A DNA stretch of 64,000 nt from a virus: positions 38,033 to 102,032 of the IMG/VR virus record IMGVR_UViG_3300045988_094081. The stretch is one strand, 5' to 3'. The position numbers and the translations under genes were made by a program. This document shows positions 45,500 to 62,671 of this stretch, one piece after another. Numbering within the stretch: position 1 is the first letter of the stretch; every line of letters begins with the position of its first letter. The notes beneath the pieces were generated by a model. It had not been told where the DNA came from. It saw only the letters and a list, made by a program, of their open reading frames with translations, and did no database searches.

Positions 45500-45994
45500 T
45501 TAGATACTTAATTCTCCTTCTTCGTATTTTATATTCACCTTGTCACCGTTTTTGTAATTTTTTCCAGACAAGCACCTCACTCTCATCTGTTCCTGTCTTC
45601 CATTTTTCGAAATATTTACCATATAATGATTCTTACCTGATCTAAATACTATCTCCGCCTCTCTGCCATTTAAATCTTCCGGACATTCGTACACCATTTC
45701 TTGTTTTAACTTAAGAAGTAACTTATATACGTAAAACAAAACGATAAAGAAAAATGACCCTATTACGATCCCTACTAAATGGGAACCCGAAAAGTACGTA
45801 GTCCAGCTATATCCAAGAATAAAATGTGTTATGCCTTTGAATGATATGATGTCCGACAAAGACATGCTTAAATCAGAAGCGTTATCAATGTCAATATCCG
45901 TATCCAGATCAGATCCTAATATCGACAATAAAAACTGTATAACAAAAGCAAATGACGCTATTAAAGCCATGCATAAAATTATATCATTTCCCAT
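45500..45994 (-). CDS. nfeD: NfeD-like (YuaF-type) membrane protein with a C-terminal OB-fold, the canonical operon partner of flotillins
   Basis: N-terminal TM helices plus a C-terminal beta-barrel region NGREAEIVFRSGKNHYMVNI...GDKVNIKYEEGELSI. It lies immediately upstream of the flotillin, matching the yuaF-floT arrangement. Confidence 0.65.
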   Translation of the reverse strand: MGNDIILCMALIASFAFVIQFLLSILGSDLDTDIDIDNASDLSMSLSDIISFKGITHFILGYSWTTYFSGSHLVGIVIGSFFFIVLFYVYKLLLKLKQEMVYECPEDLNGREAEIVFRSGKNHYMVNISKNGRQEQMRVRCLSGKNYKNGDKVNIKYEEGELSI

Positions 45995-46235
45995 ATCCTT
46001 CTGTTATTATTTTGTAAACAAGATCAGTCATATCTTTGATGGATTCTGTATCATAATCAATAATAACGATATTGAATTTTTGTTCCACCATCGCATCAAG
46101 CTCAATTCGATCAATAGAATCTAATCCAAGTTCTTTAAACGACACATCTTCTTCATGAACTATATCCATTTCCGAATTAAGAAACTGAGTAATAATTATA
46201 TCCTCTATTATCTTTCTAATTCTTACTTTTTCCAT
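45984..46235 (-). CDS. Acyl/peptidyl carrier protein-like small acidic protein with the LGLDSID phosphopantetheine-attachment motif
   Basis: FKELGLDSIDRIELDAMVEQKFNIVI aligns with E. coli ACP [27 protein letters not shown]. It overlaps both neighbours (11 and 13 nt), indicating translational coupling. Confidence 0.6.
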   Translation of the reverse strand: MEKVRIRKIIEDIIITQFLNSEMDIVHEEDVSFKELGLDSIDRIELDAMVEQKFNIVIIDYDTESIKDMTDLVYKIITEGYGK

Positions 46236-46936
46236 TGCTTTCTAATTTTGTTAAATAAATACGTTTTTATGTTTTTCAACCTCTCTTTGTCTGTTTCCGA
46301 ACTTCCGGTAAACAAATAATCCGGATTGCCTTTAGCCGGCGGCGTAGGCAATTTAGATACGGCAAACAACCAATCCATTTCCTTATTCTTCTTAGGCTCC
46401 AAATAAGGCTCGGTAGCGATCTTAAATTTTTCAGCTATTAGGTCAAAGAGCTTTGAGTTTTTAAGGTTCATATGGACTGAAAAAGCCTGAGAAGGCGGTT
46501 TCCATATGAAGTTACATAAGCTCATTGTGTAATCTCCTGACTCTGCTATATAAGATTCCGTTACTTGAAGTATGACCTCTTTCTTAAATGAAGTATTACC
46601 CATAAACCAACACAATCTGGATTCCGCTTCTTTTCTGCTGACACCTATGTCTTTTGAATATGATTCGTACATTCCTATCATAATCTTCAACGTTTCCAGA
46701 ACCTCGTCCGTCATTTCCGGTGTCTCTATATAATTCACAAAAGACGTTCCTTTGTTGGTTAATCTCATCACGCCTGATTTTAATTTCTCAACCAGGCCAA
46801 GCTCTATATATCTTCCAGCGTCTTCTTCCGGTATGGCTTCGATCATAACCGCATCCTTCTGTCTTATGGCAAGAAGATTAGCGAGATCATTAGGAGTCAT
46901 GTCTGATGCTGTAAGTTGTCTGAAATTGATGTACAT
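46223..46936 (-). CDS. Hypothetical protein (237 aa), first gene of the ACP-NfeD-flotillin coupled unit
   Basis: ORF. No PPTase or acyltransferase motifs could be confirmed. Confidence 0.5.
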   Translation of the reverse strand: MYINFRQLTASDMTPNDLANLLAIRQKDAVMIEAIPEEDAGRYIELGLVEKLKSGVMRLTNKGTSFVNYIETPEMTDEVLETLKIMIGMYESYSKDIGVSRKEAESRLCWFMGNTSFKKEVILQVTESYIAESGDYTMSLCNFIWKPPSQAFSVHMNLKNSKLFDLIAEKFKIATEPYLEPKKNKEMDWLFAVSKLPTPPAKGNPDYLFTGSSETDKERLKNIKTYLFNKIRKQWKK

Positions 46937-46938
46937 TC

Positions 46939-47145
46939 CTAATCAGCTTTAATGAAAATAACATCTCTATTATCCTCCCTCTCCGCGTGACTACACGGAC
47001 CTGCAATCACATCCACTGCCCCGCATGTAAAGTAATTGAATATACATCCTTCACATCCTGCATTTGGCGCCGTAGGTTCCACACATTTTAATCTCACAAG
47101 TCCGGCATCAAACACTTCTCCTACTTTAAATTCCTTCTTTTCCAT
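46939..47145 (-). CDS. Small Cys-rich protein (68 aa; CVEP...CEGCIF...CG...GPC)
   Basis: ORF with 6 Cys. Confidence 0.4.
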   Translation of the reverse strand: MEKKEFKVGEVFDAGLVRLKCVEPTAPNAGCEGCIFNYFTCGAVDVIAGPCSHAEREDNRDVIFIKAD

Positions 47146-47160
47146 ATTTCCTCCTTGTTT

Positions 47161-47763
47161 TTAACTGTTGTACCCTTCTTTGATAATCGAATTTCTACCG
47201 GTAGATACCGACTGTCGAAGATCGTCATGTACAGAATCTACCGTAGAATACTTGTTTCTGGTTGTAAAAATAACTTCCAGCATCTCCTTGTAATCACCTA
47301 AAGCTACTTCGTATCTCGGATCCACTTTGGCTTTTCTTTCAGCCTCGGCATTACTTTTAGCCAGCTCTCGGTCGAGAAGGTCTTCTTTGATCCGGTCAGC
47401 AATCATATCAAGTTCTTTTTTAATAACTTCTCCTGCTGCCCGAAGTTGACCTTCTACGTCACCAAGCTGGTCTTGGACGGTACCTATTTCTTTCTTTAGA
47501 CGATCGTATTCGTTAATCATACCCATATCACCTGCATAACCAGAAAAGTCTTTGATTATTCTGGTCCCTTCTTTAAGAAGCTCAATGACTCGTCTTTTGC
47601 GTTCTCTGCTTATTAAAGACGGAAGACGATAATTCATATCCGCTACTGCTTTATCATGTATGGAGTTGATTAAAAACATCTCTCTTTCATCCCCTGCGAA
47701 CTCAGTAAGAACCAAAAGGAACTTACTTATCAGGTATTCGTTTTCTTCTACGGTAAGTCTCAT
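47161..47763 (-). CDS. Hypothetical coiled-coil protein (~200 aa; start taken at Met52 of the ORF-track frame to avoid overlap with the dnaB-like gene)
   Basis: The ORF-track start at 47916 would overlap the DnaB-like CDS by 139 nt. An internal ATG at 47763 follows KKKKR. Confidence 0.45.
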   Translation of the reverse strand: MRLTVEENEYLISKFLLVLTEFAGDEREMFLINSIHDKAVADMNYRLPSLISRERKRRVIELLKEGTRIIKDFSGYAGDMGMINEYDRLKKEIGTVQDQLGDVEGQLRAAGEVIKKELDMIADRIKEDLLDRELAKSNAEAERKAKVDPRYEVALGDYKEMLEVIFTTRNKYSTVDSVHDDLRQSVSTGRNSIIKEGYNS

Positions 47764-47777
47764 ACGTTTCTTTTTTT

Positions 47778-48902
47778 TTAATATACTGACTGTTCTTCCT
47801 TTACCTCTTGCTCTTGATCTTGATTGTTCGTAACGTCTTCCACAGTATAGAGCTTGGGCGGCGTCGGCGGCTGGTTGGGGTTCACGAACTTCGTCCCTCC
47901 CTCCCCGTACATCCATCCATGCCCCGGCAGGATCTCTGGGTGGATTGTATTAGTAAGCTCTTCCATACTAACTTGCCTTACCTTCAGTATATGATGAAAC
48001 ACCAGTCCGGCTGTCCTGAATGATGTTTTGTTTTCAGTTTTAAACCGGTCAAGAGTCTGATACCAGTCTTTCCCAAATATCATATACTTGTCCAGCCCGT
48101 ATCTGCGAGGATTATGCAAACCTATCATTAACGTACATAGTTGCCCCAGCGTATCAGACTGATAAAAGTCAGAAAGACGGGGAGGCTGCTCTTGAGGGCT
48201 TTTTATCCTTCCTTCTATCTCTCTGTTGAATTGGGATATGATGAGGAAAAATATGTTTTTATATACTAATTTAGCCTCGTTCATAACCGCCACCAAATCA
48301 TCTATAGCCGACTTAGGATCTAATCCCATTCTTTTTATCAAAGCAATATGATCGACTTTAAATATTATAAGACGTTTGTCTTTGTGTTTGGTAGCTATAT
48401 GATACACAGCCGCCTCAAACTCTTTTACCGTACACGGAGCATCGATGTATATTATATTATTTCTAATTTCACCTTGAAGGATTTCAAACATCCTCATCTC
48501 TTCTACTGTATTAGAATCTTGCCTTCTTAATATTTCAGGAGCCCGTTTTTTCATATCCTGGCTCATTCTGCGAAGAAGAAGATCTTGAGGATTCATTTCG
48601 AACTCGCAATTGACAAGAAAATAATCTTCTGCTTGCGGGTTGATCATCGGATTCATCACATTTTCCAATATCTTTTGGGCCACATACGATTTACCCACAG
48701 ATGGCCGAGCTCCTATGGCAATAGCATGCTGAGGGAAAATACCTCCAAGCAAAGCCTCATCAATATAATCGTATCCGGTTTTAGCGGGGATAAGCTCTCC
48801 CCGCCTGTATTTCAAGATATTCTCATACGCCTCCTCCATAACCTGTTTAGAGGTCTTGAATATCCTTCTTATATCTATCTTATTTGCTATCTCCTCGTGC
48901 AT
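47778..48902 (-). CDS. dnaB: DnaB-like replicative helicase (RecA-fold C-terminal domain)
   Basis: Walker A GARPSVGKS; the H4-like motif IISQFNREIEGR...QEQPPRLSDFYQSDTLGQLCTLMIGLHNP (DnaB SQLNR motif region). The ORF-track start at 48911 is GTG; the ATG is at 48902. Confidence 0.75.
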   Translation of the reverse strand: MHEEIANKIDIRRIFKTSKQVMEEAYENILKYRRGELIPAKTGYDYIDEALLGGIFPQHAIAIGARPSVGKSYVAQKILENVMNPMINPQAEDYFLVNCEFEMNPQDLLLRRMSQDMKKRAPEILRRQDSNTVEEMRMFEILQGEIRNNIIYIDAPCTVKEFEAAVYHIATKHKDKRLIIFKVDHIALIKRMGLDPKSAIDDLVAVMNEAKLVYKNIFFLIISQFNREIEGRIKSPQEQPPRLSDFYQSDTLGQLCTLMIGLHNPRRYGLDKYMIFGKDWYQTLDRFKTENKTSFRTAGLVFHHILKVRQVSMEELTNTIHPEILPGHGWMYGEGGTKFVNPNQPPTPPKLYTVEDVTNNQDQEQEVKEEQSVY

Positions 48903-57119: not shown

Positions 57120-57410
57120 GATTCGATATTTTTTATATTATTACCAATCTCCACCATCATTTAATATGCCATCAATAATAGTTACACTATTTTCAATGTT
57201 GCTGCCTCCATATTGCGTAAATTCCGGTGTAGGATTATAGTTTGTATCTCCATGCATCATTACATGTAATGTTCCGCTTGCTAAATATATCCATAATCGT
57301 TTTCCATCTTTCTTCCATTTTTTGGCAAGCCTCTTAAATGAATCAATTAGCTTGCATTCTTCTTCTGTGCATTCTATTCCGGCTCTTGTTTCGTACTTAC
57401 TTATATCTCT

Positions 57411-58157
57411 TTAGTTGTTAGATAAAAGCAAAATCGGTTCATTTGACTCCGCAATTGCTTTTATTTGTTCTGGATTGATAAAACTCTTGACTTGTTCACT
57501 TATATTGCAAATAGACTTGATCATATCAACGAATAATTTTGAGGTACATTCGTTACATTCCACTTCCATTACCGGTTTATATCTATTGTATGATATGTTC
57601 GTTACACAATTCAGCCAGTGCGCATAAGTTTCTTTTTCTGTATTTAACCTATCGTATTCTACTTTTGTCTCTCCATTTCCATATTCAATTACTCTTTTTA
57701 GAAATGGTTTTGCATAAACACTAAAACCGAAAGGTTGGGTGTTTAAGGCATCTAAACGGGAAGTTCCATCCCTCCATTTTCCATTCTCATCATTTCCTGT
57801 CCATTCCTTAGAGGGGTTAGGGACAATATTTCCGTTTTTGTCATAGGAAAACATGCAATTCGTTTCCAGTTGATACTTAATAACAGGCACTTCTTCTACT
57901 ATTTTATAACTTAAACATCTCTTCAGAACTTCCCTGATTTGACTTTCCAAATCAGAAAGTGCTATACTATTGAAATATCCTTCGTTGCCTAATCTGTTTG
58001 TAGGTAATTTGATCCCATAAGAATGAATCTTATCCATATCTTCTTTTGACAAGGTAGTGGTAAACACTCCTTCTTTGGTGACATTCACTTTAACAGTTAC
58101 AGACAAACTGTTATTAGCGTTCTTTTCCGTTATATTTAGTGTTGTTAATGCTGCCAT
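57411..58157 (-). CDS. Hypothetical protein (248 aa)
   Basis: ORF. Confidence 0.5.
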   Translation of the reverse strand: MAALTTLNITEKNANNSLSVTVKVNVTKEGVFTTTLSKEDMDKIHSYGIKLPTNRLGNEGYFNSIALSDLESQIREVLKRCLSYKIVEEVPVIKYQLETNCMFSYDKNGNIVPNPSKEWTGNDENGKWRDGTSRLDALNTQPFGFSVYAKPFLKRVIEYGNGETKVEYDRLNTEKETYAHWLNCVTNISYNRYKPVMEVECNECTSKLFVDMIKSICNISEQVKSFINPEQIKAIAESNEPILLLSNN

Positions 58158-58175
58158 AATCAGATCTTTTTGAAA

Positions 58176-58427
58176 TCAATTCGAATAAATATAATGCATT
58201 CCTGCTTCATATACCCTATGTACATCAGGGTCATTCTTGTCTTCCGGTTCCAATTCACTTTCTTCACGAGTATAATTCCATTCAGAGTTGTAGTACATAT
58301 CCTCATTTGTTTTCTCCAAGGAGCAATCTTTCATTAGATTCATATTTTCTCCCCAGACTGCAACTTCTTGTCGTTGCTCTTCTTCTGTCATAAGAGATAT
58401 TTTGTCTTTCAATTCTTTCCAGGTCAT
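58176..58427 (-). CDS. Hypothetical acidic protein (83 aa)
   Basis: ORF. Confidence 0.4.
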   Translation of the reverse strand: MTWKELKDKISLMTEEEQRQEVAVWGENMNLMKDCSLEKTNEDMYYNSEWNYTREESELEPEDKNDPDVHRVYEAGMHYIYSN

Positions 58428-59157: not shown

Positions 59158-59955
59158 TTAGTTAGACACAAATGTACAAGTTTTATTAAGATACCCTTCT
59201 GTCATCTCTATGAAATTCACACAATCTAATTTACTTAATTTGTAAATCAATGCCGGATTGTGTATTATGGCTATAATTTGTGTTTGTGGTTTATGAAATG
59301 ACAATACATTGTAAATCTGCATTATGTTGTCAATATCAAGATTCCTGTCTGGCTCATCCATGAGAACCGTGTATTCAAAACTGCTTTCTGTTAATGTTAT
59401 GCGGTTTCTTTTATAATACTTCAACAGGTTATCAATTCTTTTGATCCAAAATGCATTTGATTTTTTCTTGTATTCTGCAAGATCTTGCATTGGAAACGCA
59501 TAATCCTTTTGGCTGAACATTAAATTGAAAAGTGATTCCAATGATAACACCACTTTTTCCCCATAAGATTTTTGAATACTATTCGCATACAAATCGAAAT
59601 TGCTGATGTTTTTTAATACACTATCTCGATTTGTCTCCGTTGACGGCAATAAACGGAATACTTTCCCTATATAATCGGATGATATATCAATCCCATCAAG
59701 AACCTTGTCATCATCATCAAATATAGGTGGGAAATCCAGCGCCTCAGCCGGCATTTCAGAGCACATGGATTTCTCGCACAACGCATACATTGATATGATG
59801 TTAAGCAAAGTTGATTTTCCACTACCGTTTTTCCCTATAATCACATTCACTCCTGGCTTGAAAATAAATTCTCTGCCATTTTCAAACGCTTCTATGTCAG
59901 AAGCATATTCAAAAGGAGTTTTTGTGTTGTCTTTTATTTTTACTAATGTTATCAT
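59158..59955 (-). CDS. Minimal ABC-type (AAA_21/SMC-head-like) ATPase, 265 aa
   Basis: Walker A GKNGSGKST near the N-terminus, a signature-like SYGEK, and Walker B/D-loop YTVLMDEPDRNLD. Confidence 0.7.
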   Translation of the reverse strand: MITLVKIKDNTKTPFEYASDIEAFENGREFIFKPGVNVIIGKNGSGKSTLLNIISMYALCEKSMCSEMPAEALDFPPIFDDDDKVLDGIDISSDYIGKVFRLLPSTETNRDSVLKNISNFDLYANSIQKSYGEKVVLSLESLFNLMFSQKDYAFPMQDLAEYKKKSNAFWIKRIDNLLKYYKRNRITLTESSFEYTVLMDEPDRNLDIDNIMQIYNVLSFHKPQTQIIAIIHNPALIYKLSKLDCVNFIEMTEGYLNKTCTFVSN

Positions 59956-59967
59956 ATGTAATCCTTT

Positions 59968-60807
59968 TTAAAAATCAATTACCGTCCGAACCCTGTGACT
60001 GCTGGACCTGTTGTTGACGTTCGTGCCGCCATTGGAGAAGCTCACGTACCACGCGTGGTACTGGCTGTACTCAGTACTGGACCAATACCACGCCGAGAAG
60101 GCTAACGGTTCTGCACCTATGTATTCAAGCGCATTGTTTATGCTGCCTTTGTAATGCGCAATTAGGTTGAGTTGTCTCAATGAAGGGATGTATTCTCCAT
60201 CTTCCAGCAGATTTTTCAACTTTGGATTTCTGGCTACAAGGCGTTCCGTATTTTTCTGTCCGTCAAAATCAAACAGCGCATCACATTCACGTTCGTAATA
60301 TGTTTCATTTACAGATACTTCGAGGCTATCATCGTCAAGCAATTGTACTCTATCATGCTCCGTCAGTGAGATAGCAAACGATACGTCTTTGTGCTTTAAT
60401 CCTATGTACCTCACATTCTTTTTGATATTCTCTCCAGTAAACGGCTCAGCGTGTCCGTTTCCGTAGATTAGATACAAACCATCTTTTCTTGATGGTACTC
60501 TATTTTCACATACGCATCTTTCATTTTTGGAACTTACAATTATGTTCAATTCATTCAACACATGATCTTTTATAACCTCCTTACATATTCTTCTTACAAA
60601 ATCATAATCTCTTTGTTTAAGTTCGTCATTAACCATACATCTGATCCAATTTTCTATCTGATTGTTATTCCCATATGTATTATTCATACACTGTTTTACA
60701 AGTTTTTCCAATAATGATTCTATGTTTTTGATTATGTCTTCTTTGGTAAGGTGAAGTTCATTTAGTATGCAGTTCCTTACCGCCTTGTATTCTTTACTTG
60801 TTCTCAT
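59968..60807 (-). CDS. Protein with a C-terminal DUF1566 (Lcl C-terminal / Fib_succ_major-like) domain
   Basis: IPSLRQLNLI...AWYWSSTEYSQYHAWYVSFSNGGTNVNNRSSSHRVRTV fits the lPt.eEL...yWSST...AW.V.F.nG...k....vRcVR pattern. Confidence 0.55.
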   Translation of the reverse strand: MRTSKEYKAVRNCILNELHLTKEDIIKNIESLLEKLVKQCMNNTYGNNNQIENWIRCMVNDELKQRDYDFVRRICKEVIKDHVLNELNIIVSSKNERCVCENRVPSRKDGLYLIYGNGHAEPFTGENIKKNVRYIGLKHKDVSFAISLTEHDRVQLLDDDSLEVSVNETYYERECDALFDFDGQKNTERLVARNPKLKNLLEDGEYIPSLRQLNLIAHYKGSINNALEYIGAEPLAFSAWYWSSTEYSQYHAWYVSFSNGGTNVNNRSSSHRVRTVIDF

Positions 60808-60818
60808 GATGATATTTT

Positions 60819-61055
60819 TTATAATTCAACTCCCTTATTTTCCATCTCCTTAATTACCTTTCTTGCTGTCTCAAGTTCAAAAAGTCTCGCTATTGCTTCA
60901 TCCTTCATTTTTTTAGCATTTCTGAATCTTTCAGGGTTTTCTCCTCTCTTAAAAAAGTCATAACCGGCCTCTTCGTATTCTGAAATGGATCTCTTTACTT
61001 CCATAACTGCTTTGAATGATTCATTTTCAAGATAAGCATGTGCTGTTGGTTTCAT
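60819..61055 (-). CDS. Hypothetical protein (78 aa)
   Basis: ORF, coupled. Confidence 0.4.
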   Translation of the reverse strand: MKPTAHAYLENESFKAVMEVKRSISEYEEAGYDFFKRGENPERFRNAKKMKDEAIARLFELETARKVIKEMENKGVEL

Positions 61056-61717
61056 TTTAGTTCTTTGATTAAAGCATCCGCATATATCACAGCTAATTCA
61101 GCCGCCTTATCACACGCTTCCAATATTAATTCACCGTGAGGTCCACGCCCTGATACAGATGTGATCGGAAGCACAGTTTTCGCTATCTCGTATCTACGTT
61201 GTTCCCAATCTACATGGGTGTTACACGGTTCTTGATTGACCTGTATATATCTTCCTTCAATATTAGAAGATCTTAATGTTTCCGCATTCTCTTCGCCGAA
61301 TGCAACCAGAATAGACCCACATCCTGGACTTTCACCTATTGTCCCATCTTCTCTGTGGAATTTTATTCTTCCTTTCATGAACAATATACCTTTCGCTTTC
61401 GGGAATACAACATCCTGAAACATCTTATTGTCAAGACGATTGAAAAGAAGAGCTATTCCATTATTGTGCTCTACCATACGAGTAATAAAATGCTCTATCG
61501 TCGGTCTTGAATAAGGTGGGTTTAACCATACCCTTCCTTCCCATTCCTGTTTTAATCCATCTTGTTCTTTGTTGTACATCACTCTGGCTGTCCTCCATAA
61601 AGGACGCATAGGCGCACATGGATCTAAATCAAATTCTCCTAAAGCATCTATAATCTCTTTAGGTGTGTACCATTCATCTGTACTATTTTTTTTTGATTTT
61701 TCAAATGATGTGTTCAT
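61052..61717 (-). CDS. dam: Phage Dam-family DNA N6-adenine methyltransferase
   Basis: DEWYTPKEIIDALGEFDLDPCAP and WLNPPYS (NPPY catalytic motif). Confidence 0.85.
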   Translation of the reverse strand: MNTSFEKSKKNSTDEWYTPKEIIDALGEFDLDPCAPMRPLWRTARVMYNKEQDGLKQEWEGRVWLNPPYSRPTIEHFITRMVEHNNGIALLFNRLDNKMFQDVVFPKAKGILFMKGRIKFHREDGTIGESPGCGSILVAFGEENAETLRSSNIEGRYIQVNQEPCNTHVDWEQRRYEIAKTVLPITSVSGRGPHGELILEACDKAAELAVIYADALIKELK

Positions 61718-61735
61718 ATATTTATGTTTTATAAG

Positions 61736-62398
61736 TTAATCCCATCCTCCATCAGCATACAAAGATACGTCTTCCTCCTCTACATTCACACCCTTAAGAG
61801 CTTGCAGAAGCTTTTTCTTTGTCTCCCTACACATATTGTAACCATATCCCTTATACTTATATGATCTTTCCCATGTACTCACTGGGAAGGGGATATTTTC
61901 ATCAATGACCAGCCTCTTCATATGAAGATGTTCGAAGAATTTATCATGGTATAGAAGTTTATACTCGTATCCTACTATATCAGTAGATGAGAATGGAAAA
62001 TAATCATCTTCCTTTTCTTCGTATTTAGGCTCCTTATAGTAAGCCATTTTTGTCACAGTAAAATCGAAGCTCCTAAGAATCTCTTCTGGCTTTCCAAACT
62101 CTGACTCTATGAACTCTATCCATACCTTTTCTCCCTCTTTCTGGAACGCACATACCTTCTCATTTCTGTACTTAAATTTCCATCCTTCTTTCTGATGTTT
62201 TTCATCATTGAACAAATCAACAGCTTCCTGAAAATCGCTTTCGCTTTCAAAGAAAATATCAATGTCTTTTACTTTTTCTCCGGAAAGGATATTTTTAAAA
62301 CATCCACCAGCTATGAATCCTTTGTGGCCTTCCATATACTTGTCAAGCCATCTTATTTGCCAGAAATTATCTGGAGTATCTATTACAAAATTATTCAT
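61736..62398 (-). CDS. Putative Pol-beta-superfamily nucleotidyltransferase (minimal NTase fold)
   Basis: GGCFKNILSGEKVKDIDIFF (GG...DxD) plus a downstream acidic WIEFIE. Confidence 0.45.
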   Translation of the reverse strand: MNNFVIDTPDNFWQIRWLDKYMEGHKGFIAGGCFKNILSGEKVKDIDIFFESESDFQEAVDLFNDEKHQKEGWKFKYRNEKVCAFQKEGEKVWIEFIESEFGKPEEILRSFDFTVTKMAYYKEPKYEEKEDDYFPFSSTDIVGYEYKLLYHDKFFEHLHMKRLVIDENIPFPVSTWERSYKYKGYGYNMCRETKKKLLQALKGVNVEEEDVSLYADGGWD

Positions 62399-62416: not shown

Positions 62417-62671
62417 TTACCAAGCGAGATAAAAATTCCGCTTCACAATAATACAATGAGTGTAATTACTCAGGTCGATTCCGTTGTCCGTAAATGCATC
62501 CAGGACCCGTTTTTCCACGTATTTGAGTTTTACTGTTATCCCCTTCTTAAACACTTCTATTAACTTCTCATTGCACTCAATAGGTCCAATAAGACAGTAT
62601 CTATTCGAAGGACTGTCTGATATACAATATGTCTGACATCCTAACATGTTGCTTAAAATTACTTCGTTCAT
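62417..62671 (-). CDS. Hypothetical protein (84 aa)
   Basis: ORF. Confidence 0.4.
   Translation of the reverse strand: MNEVILSNMLGCQTYCISDSPSNRYCLIGPIECNEKLIEVFKKGITVKLKYVEKRVLDAFTDNGIDLSNYTHCIIVKRNFYLAW

What the first reader, a model, noticed from the sequence alone, without database searches (positions are those of the whole stretch)
59158..62398. Accessory cluster of a Pol-beta-like NTase, a Dam methyltransferase, a DUF1566-domain protein and a minimal ABC-type ATPase
Five tightly packed, coupled genes run NTase -> Dam MTase -> 78 aa -> DUF1566 protein -> 265-aa ABC ATPase. Dam-type methylation in phages typically protects against restriction. The NTase and the ATPase could be anti-defence, for example signal-degrading or decoy functions, or part of a phage-carried defence/exclusion module. 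A DUF1566 (Lcl-like adhesin) domain outside the structural block is unexpected.
Basis: partly seen in the sequence, partly recalled or inferred. Interest (0 to 1): 0.55.

Follow-up and report, generated by a model that had tools for sequence, protein, structure and literature searches.

The report
Phage accessory mosaic, orphan DGR target
Five real, tightly packed genes of an abundant human-gut crAss-like phage are not one system but a recombination hot spot: a Gad2-type counter-defence enzyme, a swappable DNA methylase, a lone ATPase, and a protein whose binding tip bears the marks of retroelement-driven hypermutation, although the phage lacks the matching template.

Summary
The five minus-strand ORFs exist exactly as described, and the domain calls hold. 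They are not a conserved module. Among 74 distinct versions of this block in close relatives, only NTase–DUF1566 protein–ATPase is constant. The slot between NTase and DUF1566 protein holds Dam (26), an unrelated 145-aa ORF (31) or nothing (17). The 78-aa ORF occurs in only one other contig. In distant phages the NTase and the ATPase each occur alone.

The NTase is the nucleotidyltransferase domain of Gad2 (Gabija anti-defence 2), with the catalytic motifs conserved, but it lacks Gad2's C-terminal half.

The DUF1566 protein is a DGR-type variable protein. Its last ~35 codons vary at codon positions 1 and 2 only. The window's variable repeat differs from a template repeat found beside a reverse transcriptase in an unrelated gut phage at 16 of 117 bases, 14 of them template adenines. 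No such template exists in the window, in the first 150,000 of the 151,256 bases of the closest relative, or in any related IMG/VR contig. Trans-homing versus a relic is unresolved.

The ATPase is a catalytically intact, stand-alone ABC-type ATPase of unknown role.

The anti-defence reading is partly supported. The "cluster" reading is not.

The parts
61736..62398 (-). 220-aa nucleotidyltransferase: the Gad2-family NTase domain only (AGG 30-32, D45xD47, F111-D-F-T114)
   Evidence: phrog_4400, 5e-66; PF26128 Gad2 on homologues; BLASTP 1e-10 to verified Brevibacillus Gad2, residues 22-202 vs 22-177; motifs invariant with both Gad2 proteins
60811..61707 (.). Swappable cassette (Dam + 78-aa ORF). 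This stretch has no counterpart in crAssE-Sib, where a 145-aa ORF sits instead
   Evidence: alignment gap 60811-61707; three alternative slot contents in relatives; nested replacement; remnant of the 145-aa gene after Dam in most relatives
61052..61717 (-). 221-aa orphan N6-adenine DNA methyltransferase (Pfam Dam PF05869; NPPY at residues 66-69) with a ~70-aa C-terminal extension
   Evidence: 56.8 bits, cut-off 28.1; phrog_111 1e-42; C-terminal phrog_28300; PADLOC orphan MTase; below the NCBIfam equivalog cut-off
60819..61055 (-). 78-aa ORF overlapping the Dam stop by 4 nt. No family hits. Found only here and in one related contig, so a low-confidence gene or junction ORF
   Evidence: present in 2 loci; shares only the first ~11 residues with the remnant ORF of other Dam-bearing relatives
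59968..60807 (-). 279-aa protein: hydrophilic, probably helical N-terminal region (the only structure model is low-confidence), and a C-terminal DUF1566/Lcl_C (C-type-lectin-like) domain. It is the fastest-evolving gene of the block
   Evidence: 82% nt identity to Sib vs 95% in the flanks; mean pairwise aa identity 0.846 vs 0.94-0.95 in the flanking genes
59981..60103 (-). DGR-type variable repeat (VR) at the 3' end of the 279-aa gene. It ends in a 13-nt G/C-rich element (GGGTTCGGACGGT in the window; differs at one base from the GGGTTCGGGCGGT of the foreign template repeat)
   Evidence: variation confined to codon positions 1 and 2 of NNC codons; BLAST to L168 TR; 16 mismatches in 117 nt, 14 at TR adenines
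59158..59955 (-). 265-aa stand-alone ABC-type ATPase (Walker A G41-T49, signature S130xGE133, Walker B D200-E201, H232)
   Evidence: motifs invariant in 17 homologues down to 49% identity; 185 clusters at E <= 1e-30; nearly all full-length hits 240-300 aa; model pLDDT 78; generic ABC fold

Best explanation
The block is a recombination hot spot in the early/accessory arm of an epsilon crAss-like gut phage closely related to crAssE-Sib. It holds four independent arms-race functions rather than one system.

(1) NTase. This is the catalytic domain of the Gad2 family. It most likely acts early in infection as a nucleotidyltransferase that disables a host defence; Gabija is the only documented target of the family. 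The family assignment is shown. The activity and the target are inferred, and Gad2's mechanism is itself unknown.

(2) Dam plus the small ORF. This is a mobile cassette occupying a slot that in sister genomes holds another gene or nothing. Dam presumably methylates the phage's own adenines to blunt restriction. The methyltransferase family is shown; the target site and the benefit are inferred.

(3) The 279-aa protein. This is a DGR variable protein. Its C-type-lectin-like tip has been rewritten by adenine-mutagenic retrohoming, giving about 40 tip variants in the population (sequence signature shown). The matching template repeat and reverse transcriptase are not in this phage group but in other gut phages that exchange DNA with it. 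The rewriting was therefore most likely done in trans during co-infection or co-residence (inferred), or it predates the loss of a cis cassette. The protein has no hydrophobic N-terminus and lies outside the structural block, so it is probably an intracellular or accessory binder with variable specificity (inferred).

(4) The ATPase. This is an autonomous, catalytically competent ABC-type ATPase that travels alone among phages. Its partner and role are unknown.
For: Phage identity: 93-95% nt identity to crAssE-Sib, described as epsilon crAss-like in PMC11054128.

Mosaicism:
- The slot holds Dam, a 145-aa ORF or nothing: 26 / 31 / 17 of 74 distinct versions.
- The 78-aa ORF occurs in 2 loci only.
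- A second slot sometimes holds a 73-aa ORF.
- Recombination breakpoints lie at the DUF1566/ATPase junction and at the VR edge.
- One natural deletion fuses NTase residues 1-71 to the ATPase.
- ATPase homologues at 64% and 51% identity, and NTase homologues at 63% and 60%, lie in other phages without the partner genes.

NTase: PF26128 Gad2 on homologues; BLASTP 1e-10 to a verified Gad2; AGG, DxD and FDFT invariant with both Gad2 proteins.

DGR target:
- Tip residues are drawn from the set reachable from AAY codons.
- Heterozygosity by codon position (1/2/3) is 0.245/0.288/0.090 in the VR, against 0.112/0.077/0.162 in the rest of the gene.
- Nucleotide diversity is 0.329 at TR-adenine sites against 0.068 at other VR sites.
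- The window's VR differs from the L168 TR at 16 of 117 bases, 14 at adenines. Across 42 haplotypes, 766 of 1030 mismatches fall at adenines.
- L168 is a bona fide cassette: an Lcl_C target (38.8 bits), the TR, and an RVT_1 reverse transcriptase.
- Protein similarity to the L168 target is limited to the VR.

No cis template.

DNA exchange with TR-bearing phages: ~280-nt segments at 92-94% identity.

ATPase.
Against: - No biochemical or genetic test of any function is possible here.
- The NTase lacks the C-terminal ~180-200 residues of Gad2, so anti-Gabija activity may not transfer.
- Dam's target is unknown. The Dam-less relative has the same GATC density, so Dam is not needed to tolerate GATC.
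- Current DGR activity is not shown. Genomes with identical flanks almost always share the VR. The one apparent VR-only swap (L133/L113) also differs downstream, so it fits recombination.
- The commonest haplotype carries 4-5 non-adenine differences from the known TR, which implies another, unseen template.
- Only the first 150,000 of Sib's 151,256 bases were scanned.
- The structural model of the 279-aa protein failed (pLDDT 40), so the lectin fold rests on profile and VR evidence.
Confidence: 0.65

Rival explanations
1. The variable repeat is a relic. An ancestor of this phage group carried the matching DGR cassette in cis and diversified the gene. The cassette was then lost, and the present haplotypes are old alleles shuffled by homologous recombination. 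No rewriting occurs today.
For: - No template in cis in any related genome.
- Genomes with identical flanks share the VR in 98% of pairs.
- One haplotype dominates many contigs.
- Haplotype changes co-occur with changes in one flank.
Against: - Non-adenine VR positions stay within 1-7 of 58 differences from a template carried by unrelated phages, although nothing else in the gene is alignable to them.
- Diversity at non-adenine VR sites (0.068) is lower than in the adjoining 219 nt (0.105), as expected if the VR is periodically re-copied from a conserved template.
- TR-bearing phages demonstrably exchange DNA with this group.
Confidence: 0.3
2. The five genes form one co-functioning anti-defence or defence/exclusion operon. 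For example, an ABC ATPase sensor with an NTase effector, protected by Dam.
For: - Tight packing on one strand with a 4-nt overlap.
- NTase-DUF1566-ATPase order constant within the genus.
Against: - Dam and the 78-aa ORF are absent from about two thirds of close relatives.
- NTase and ATPase homologues occur separately in other phages.
- No PADLOC system is complete.
- One genome deletes most of the NTase and all of the DUF1566 gene but keeps the ATPase.
Confidence: 0.07
3. The tip variability of the 279-aa protein comes from ordinary positive selection and recombination on a ligand-binding loop, without any retroelement.
For: The gene is also unusually variable in its middle part, residues 61-140. 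That region is not DGR-like and shows that recombination and selection act on the gene.
Against: - Third codon positions are nearly invariant while positions 1 and 2 vary.
- Mismatches to a real TR lying next to a reverse transcriptase fall at adenines: 14 of 16 for the window, 74% overall against 33% adenine content.
- Similarity to the foreign cassette stops at the TR boundaries.
Confidence: 0.03

Closest known systems
Gad2 (Gabija anti-defence 2) of Bacillus phage SPbetaL7 and a Brevibacillus laterosporus prophage (Yirmiya et al., bioRxiv 10.1101/2023.05.01.538930; Pfam PF26128)
   Same: Phage-encoded. Homologous NTase domain (BLASTP 1e-10, 23% identity over ~180 residues). AGG, DxD and FDFT motifs are conserved. 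Homologues carry PF26128.
   Different: Only 220 aa against 394-400 aa: the whole C-terminal half of Gad2 is missing. The host is a Bacteroidota-infecting crAss-like phage rather than a Bacillus phage. No activity data exist. The short form (phrog_4400) is widespread in Streptococcus, Bacillus cereus, Listeria and Bacteroides phages.
DGR target proteins with DUF1566-type (CLec2, 'category d') variable repeats, e.g. Legionella LdtA (Wu et al. 2018, PMC5758913)
   Same: The VR lies at the extreme 3' end of the ORF inside a DUF1566/Lcl_C domain. It has an AAC-rich template, adenine-specific differences, and a G/C-rich element at the VR end.
   Different: No template repeat or matching reverse transcriptase in the same genome. 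The phage's own annotated DGR (tail-fibre VR/TR) is unrelated, and its RT is barely similar to the L168 RT. The matching TR sits in other phage lineages. The gene lies in the non-structural arm and has no lipoprotein or signal-like N-terminus. Wu et al. expected no remote targets for phage DGRs.
Phage orphan Dam methyltransferases of Pfam PF05869 (phage T1 and HP1 Dam type; from memory for the named examples)
   Same: Profile match above cut-off, NPPY catalytic motif, no cognate restriction enzyme nearby.
   Different: Below the NCBIfam equivalog cut-off. It carries an extra ~70-aa C-terminal region. Its specificity is unknown. It behaves as a presence/absence cassette within one phage genus.
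Soluble ABC-type ATPases of defence systems (PtuA of Septu and retron Ec83/Eco7, AriA of PARIS, GajA N-terminal domain) and ABC-transporter nucleotide-binding domains
   Different: Only 265 aa, with no nuclease, TOPRIM, coiled-coil or membrane partner. It has a ~65-residue helical insert between signature and Walker B. It is encoded by phages, stands alone, and forms its own family of ~185 clusters at E <= 1e-30.
crAssE-Sib, epsilon crAss-like phage (OR575929.1; Viruses 2024, PMC11054128)
   Same: 93-95% nt identity across the region, with the same NTase, DUF1566 protein and ATPase.
   Different: Sib has a 145-aa ORF instead of Dam plus the 78-aa ORF, and an extra 73-aa ORF before the ATPase. 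Its record calls these genes 'polyA polymerase', 'DUF3988 domain-containing protein' and 'AAA ATPase'. No passage retrieved from the paper mentions a second target gene or these genes, and the record annotates no VR in this gene.

Membership tests
Gad2 (PF26128) | Sequence homology to an experimentally verified Gad2 | tested here: met
   BLASTP E = 1e-10, residues 22-202 vs 22-177 of the Brevibacillus Gad2. PF26128 is precomputed on all but one of the 120 listed homologues. The local Pfam copy did not report this family.
Gad2 (PF26128) | Intact nucleotidyltransferase motifs (hGG, DxD, third carboxylate) | tested here: met
   A30-G31-G32, D45, D47 and F111-D112-F113-T114 are invariant across the family and both Gad2 sequences.
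Gad2 (PF26128) | Full ~400-aa architecture with the C-terminal domain | tested here: not met
   The protein is 220 aa and the alignment ends at Gad2 residue ~177 of 394. The stop codon is conserved in relatives.
Gad2 (PF26128) | Inhibits Gabija defence | not testable with these tools
   Needs infection assays. Gad2's mechanism is still unresolved (PMC12904381).
DGR target gene (CLec2 / DUF1566 type) | Variable repeat at the 3' end of an ORF within a C-type-lectin-like/DUF1566 domain | tested here: met
   Lcl_C hit at residues 208-276. Hypervariable residues 247-272 sit on a fixed scaffold.
DGR target gene (CLec2 / DUF1566 type) | TR/VR pair differing almost only at template adenines | tested here: met
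   Window VR vs L168 TR: 16 mismatches in 117 nt, 14 at A. Across 42 haplotypes, 766/1030 mismatches fall at A. Diversity is 0.329 at A sites vs 0.068 elsewhere. The TR used is from another phage.
DGR target gene (CLec2 / DUF1566 type) | Cognate TR and reverse transcriptase in the same genome | tested here: not met
   No match in the window, in Sib bases 1-150,000, or within +-6 kb in 167 loci. Whole-collection pattern scans hit only two non-related contigs. Sib's own TR does not match.
DGR target gene (CLec2 / DUF1566 type) | IMH-like element at the VR 3' end permitting homing | tested here: inconclusive
   The VR shares GGGTTCGG(G/A)CGGT with the TR. The following GGCAGCAT, present after both the VR and the TR in L168, is absent here.
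DGR target gene (CLec2 / DUF1566 type) | Ongoing diversification | tested here: inconclusive
   Identical-flank pairs share the VR. The apparent VR-only swap is a recombinant. Read-level data are not available.
Phage Dam methyltransferase (PF05869) | Profile match above the curated cut-off, and the (D/N)PPY motif | tested here: met
   56.8 bits vs 28.1. NPPY is read at residues 66-69 of the translation.
Phage Dam methyltransferase (PF05869) | GATC specificity / equivalog of TIGR01712 | tested here: not met
   40.8 bits vs the 97.05 cut-off. The target site itself is not testable here. GATC is retained at 246 sites, with the same density in the Dam-less Sib.
ABC-type ATPase superfamily | Walker A, signature, Walker B, H-loop and the ABC fold | tested here: met
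OLD/GajA, PtuA (Septu), AriA (PARIS) defence ATPases | Fused or adjacent nuclease/effector partner (TOPRIM, HNH PtuB, AriB) | tested here: not met
   The protein is 265 aa with no extra domain. Neighbours give no PADLOC or Pfam effector hit. Homologues in other phages have unrelated neighbours.
ABC transporter | Adjacent membrane permease | tested here: not met
   No permease-like family among the eight neighbouring proteins scanned, nor in L160/L161. No dedicated transmembrane prediction was run.

The most novel reading that the evidence does not exclude
An abundant, mostly DGR-template-less crAss-like phage lineage keeps a non-structural, cytoplasmic C-type-lectin binder. The specificity of that binder is rewritten in trans by the retroelement of an unrelated co-infecting phage (cross-phage 'borrowing' of a DGR). 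The diversified protein would serve as an adaptable binder of variable host factors such as defence proteins, next to a Gad2-type enzyme in an anti-defence islet.
Probability: 0.12. Interest if true: 0.85.

Novelty: new variant of a known kind. Interest (0 to 1): 0.55.

Why it matters
Epsilon crAss-like phages are among the common viruses of the human gut, yet almost all genes in their early arm are unannotated. This analysis puts names and testable functions on four of them.

- The 'polyA polymerase' is a short Gad2-family enzyme. This widens the family to a ~200-aa form present in many dairy, Bacillus, Listeria and Bacteroides phages. It also offers a minimal protein for working out Gad2's still unknown mechanism.
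- The 'DUF3988/DUF1566' gene is a second DGR-type target that is not marked in the reference record. Its template lies in a different phage lineage. If rewriting happens in trans, DGRs act across co-infecting genomes, which current surveys assume does not occur for phages. It would also mean that hypervariable binders are used for something other than receptor recognition.
- The slot structure shows how methyltransferase cassettes come and go within a single phage genus.

Tried and rejected
- A literature search for 'csAssE' returned only noise. The relevant paper was found later under 'epsilon crAss-like'.
- No tRNA genes lie in the window, so a tRNA-repair context for the NTase could not be argued.
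- Sequence searches of the PDB gave only P-loop matches for the ATPase and nothing for the NTase or the 279-aa protein.
- The annotated TR of crAssE-Sib was tested as template for the new VR and does not match. BLAST and a masked scan on 67 invariant columns found no other copy in Sib, the window or 167 loci.
- A second, looser TR pattern recovered only the same two foreign contigs.
- A search for pairs of genomes differing only in the VR, which would prove in-situ homing, failed. Pairs with 0-3 flank differences have at most 3 VR differences. L017/L019 differ over the whole gene and the upstream slot. L133/L113 differ in the VR and also downstream.
- The AlphaFold model of the 279-aa protein was unusable (pLDDT 40), so no fold search was run on it.
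- Fold searches for the ATPase did not discriminate between defence ATPases, DNA-repair ATPases and transporter domains.
- The 311-aa 'long' NTase homologues are gene-caller artefacts that read the conserved TAA stop of the upstream ORF as Q.
- The Sib annotation 'DUF3988' was not reproduced for the window protein.
- One script call produced nothing.


Full report
**Observation.**
- NTase: 62398..61736, 220 aa
- Dam: 61717..61052, 221 aa
- 78-aa ORF: 61055..60819
- DUF1566 protein: 60807..59968, 279 aa
- ATPase: 59955..59158, 265 aa

They are separated by 18 nt, a 4-nt overlap, 11 nt and 12 nt. Profile searches confirm the domain calls.
- Dam matches PF05869 at 56.8 bits (cut-off 28.1) and phrog_111 at 1e-42.
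- The ATPase passes AAA_23, AAA_21 and SMC_N.
- The 279-aa protein matches Lcl_C/DUF1566 at residues 208-276. The score (30.5 bits) is under the cut-off of 34.9, but many homologues carry precomputed PF07603.
- The NTase gives only a weak PolyA_pol head hit locally, but phrog_4400 at 5e-66.
- The 78-aa ORF matches nothing.
- Promoter-like sites are at chance level, and no minus-strand terminator separates the genes.

**Genomic setting.** The region is 93-95% identical to phage crAssE-Sib (OR575929.1, 151 kb, human gut). That phage is described as an epsilon crAss-like phage (PMC11054128). The block lies in the minus-strand arm that also holds the replication genes and dozens of small unannotated ORFs. 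Related contigs are very common: 324 IMG/VR stretches encode the ATPase at 90% identity or more.

**Not a module.** Against Sib, the window aligns at 95% through the ATPase and at 95% from the NTase onward. It aligns at only 82% across the DUF1566 gene, and not at all over 60811-61707, the Dam plus 78-aa stretch. Sib has a 145-aa ORF there instead.

Across the fetched relatives, NTase–DUF1566–ATPase is constant, but the slot between NTase and DUF1566 varies. After de-duplication there are 74 distinct versions: 26 with Dam, 31 with the 145-aa ORF and 17 empty. The 78-aa ORF is found only in the window and in one other locus.

In other Dam-bearing genomes, Dam is followed by a ~50-aa ORF that is the 3' remnant of the 145-aa gene. 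This shows nested replacement at the slot. A second slot before the ATPase sometimes holds a 73-aa ORF. One contig carries a deletion that fuses NTase residues 1-71 directly to the ATPase.

Beyond the genus the genes part company.
- ATPase homologues at 64% and 51% identity sit among other small phage genes, with no NTase, Dam or DUF1566 neighbour.
- NTase homologues at 63% and 60% identity sit next to nucleotide-metabolism or unrelated genes.
- No PADLOC system is complete.

**NTase.** All but one of the 120 listed homologues carry precomputed Pfam PF26128, which the context tool names 'Gad2'. Gad2 is the second Gabija anti-defence protein of Yirmiya et al. It is a 400-aa phage protein with a predicted NTase domain, verified by knockout in SPbetaL7 and by a Brevibacillus homologue.

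The window protein aligns to that verified homologue with E = 1e-10, over residues 22-202 against 22-177. In a joint alignment, AGG (30-32), D45, D47, F111-D-F-T114, H151, F154 and H157 are invariant across the window's family and both Gad2 proteins. The protein is therefore the Gad2 NTase domain with its catalytic motifs, but without Gad2's C-terminal half.

This short form is widespread in Streptococcus thermophilus, Bacillus cereus, Listeria, Lactococcus and Bacteroides phages. A 2026 review still lists Gad2's mechanism as unknown. The family assignment is shown. Anti-Gabija activity for the short form is inference.

**Dam.** This is a member of the phage Dam family, with NPPY at residues 66-69. 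It scores below the NCBIfam equivalog cut-off and has a C-terminal extension matching phrog_28300.

The window keeps 246 GATC sites, against 297 ± 15 expected. The Dam-less Sib has the same density. The target and the benefit of the methylase therefore remain inferred. By contrast, CTAG is completely absent: 0 sites against 196 ± 12 expected.

**The DUF1566 protein is a DGR-type variable protein.** It is the fastest-evolving gene of the block. Mean pairwise amino-acid identity is 0.846, against 0.94-0.95 for the flanking genes.

Its last ~35 residues have a fixed scaffold: WSSTE-x-SQ-xx-AW-x-V-x-FS-x-G-x-T-xxxx-K-xxxx-x-VR. The variable positions are filled with N/S/T/Y/H/D/A/G/C/F/I/L/V, the set reachable from AAY codons. 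At the DNA level, variation sits at codon positions 1 and 2, while position 3 (mostly C) is nearly fixed. Heterozygosity by codon position is 0.245/0.288/0.090 in the VR, against 0.112/0.077/0.162 in the rest of the gene.

A template inferred from these columns was searched in IMG/VR. It hit two contigs that do not belong to this phage group. In L168 the match lies just upstream of, and overlapping, an ORF with an RVT_1 domain. It lies downstream of a 499-aa ORF with an Lcl_C domain (38.8 bits) and that ORF's own VR. L168 is thus a complete DGR cassette.

The window's VR (59981-60103) differs from this TR at 16 of 117 positions: 14 at template adenines, one a synonymous C>T, and one in the terminal G/C-rich element. 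Over 42 haplotypes, 766 of 1030 mismatches fall at adenines, that is 46% of adenine positions against 7.6% of the others. Nucleotide diversity is 0.329 at adenine sites and 0.068 at the other VR sites.

Protein similarity between the window gene and the L168 target is limited to the VR. Nucleotide similarity stops at the TR boundaries.

**No template in cis.** Sib has an annotated DGR: a tail-fibre VR at 45751-45846, a TR at 46215-46310 and an RT at 46419-47816. That TR does not match the new VR. Its RT is barely similar to the L168 RT.

BLAST and a masked scan on 67 invariant columns found no second copy in any of the following:
- the window
- Sib bases 1-150,000
- ±6 kb of the gene in 167 loci

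Two whole-collection scans of IMG/VR, which include the several hundred related contigs, found only the two foreign contigs. The same pattern occurs in a Parabacteroides MAG contig, a rumen Bacteroidaceae MAG contig and three metagenome contigs of 80-95 kb. Two of the TR-bearing loci (L168, L174) share ~280-nt segments at 92-94% identity with window 57131-57413 and 58168-58427. These lineages therefore exchange DNA with this phage group.

No passage retrieved from the crAssE-Sib paper mentions a second target gene or these genes, and the GenBank record annotates only the tail-fibre VR/TR. A large DGR survey explicitly expected no remote targets for phage DGRs. It also notes that Avd, TR and RT can work in trans from a plasmid.

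**Is it active now?** This is unresolved.
- Genomes with identical flanks share the VR in 98% of pairs.
- L017/L019 have identical ATPase genes but differ across the entire DUF1566 gene and the upstream slot.
- L133/L113 differ by one base in the gene body and by 23 in the VR, but they also differ downstream, so recombination explains them.
- In favour of periodic re-copying, non-adenine VR sites are less diverse (0.068) than the adjoining 219 nt (0.105). They also lie within 1-7 of 58 differences from a template carried by unrelated phages.

My rough split is 0.45 for episodic trans-homing during co-infection, 0.3 for a relic of a lost cis cassette, and the rest for a template in unsampled sequence.

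**ATPase.** The family is large. There are 676 hits in the 90% clusters and 185 clusters at E ≤ 1e-30 in the 50% library. Nearly all full-length hits are 240-300 aa.

Walker A, S130xGE133, D200-E201 and H232 are invariant down to 49% identity. The model (pLDDT 78) has an ABC fold with a poorly modelled stretch at residues 110-129 just before the signature motif, and long helices between the signature and Walker B.
- Foldseek finds transporter NBDs, PhnK and SMC heads at E 1e-5 to 1e-3.

The protein has no fused or neighbouring effector or permease. It is a competent, autonomous ABC-type ATPase. Its role as decoy, clamp or exclusion factor is open.

**Verdict.** The NTase is assigned to the Gad2 family, and an orphan DGR variable repeat has been found in an abundant gut phage, with its template in another phage lineage.

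Noticed in passing
window 1-64000 (also OR575929.1): The tetranucleotide CTAG is completely absent from the 64-kb window: 0 sites against 196 ± 12 expected from dinucleotide-preserving shuffles. It occurs only twice in 150 kb of crAssE-Sib. GGCC and CGCG are at about half of expectation, and GATC is only mildly depleted (246 vs 297 ± 15). This looks like restriction-site avoidance. A C^TAG enzyme such as BfaI of Bacteroides fragilis comes to mind, from memory only.
   Followed up: partly
window 62417-62419 and homologues P0122-P0134: Many database homologues of the NTase are listed as 311 aa. They read through the conserved TAA stop of the upstream 84-aa ORF as glutamine (e.g. P0125). The stop is present in nearly all related loci, so these are gene-calling artefacts, not a longer isoform.
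   Followed up: yes
protein P0002 (one 34.7-kb contig): A natural variant fuses NTase residues 1-71 directly to the full ATPase. This deletes the rest of the NTase, the slot and the whole DUF1566 gene. It suggests these genes are dispensable, at least in that genome or assembly.
   Followed up: no
window 57131-57413 and 58168-58427; L168 6022-6302; L174 6971-7230: Short segments (~260-285 nt, 92-95% identical) are shared between this phage and the otherwise unrelated DGR-bearing phage contigs that carry the matching template repeat. This is evidence of recent DNA exchange, and so probably of a shared host.
   Followed up: partly
window 60046-60061: A perfect 16-nt palindrome (GTACCACGCGTGGTAC) lies inside the variable repeat. 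It is created by this allele's particular codons (TAC CAC GCG TGG TAC) and is probably fortuitous.
   Followed up: no
window 59968-60807, residues 61-140 of the 279-aa protein: Besides the DGR-type tip, the middle of the protein is also markedly variable among relatives (column variability 0.14-0.20, against <0.1 elsewhere). It shows no adenine-type signature. The cause is unexplained; recombination or selection are candidates.
   Followed up: no
L001 8131-8967 (OR575929.1 135757-136593): The GenBank record of crAssE-Sib labels the homologue of the 279-aa protein 'DUF3988 domain-containing protein' and the NTase 'polyA polymerase'. Neither label was reproduced here for the window proteins, apart from a weak PolyA_pol head hit at E = 0.033. 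The record annotates no VR in this gene.
   Followed up: partly
window ~34000: GC skew and coding strand switch at about 34 kb: plus-strand large structural ORFs lie before it and minus-strand early/replication ORFs after it. The window contains no tRNA genes, although crAssE-Sib has six elsewhere in its genome.
   Followed up: no
L162 1965-3080; OR575929.1 58986-60125 and 64190-65413: IS605 OrfB/TnpB-type genes occur in crAssE-Sib and in a distant phage that carries an NTase homologue. They are mobile elements inside these phage genomes and are not linked to the finding.
   Followed up: no
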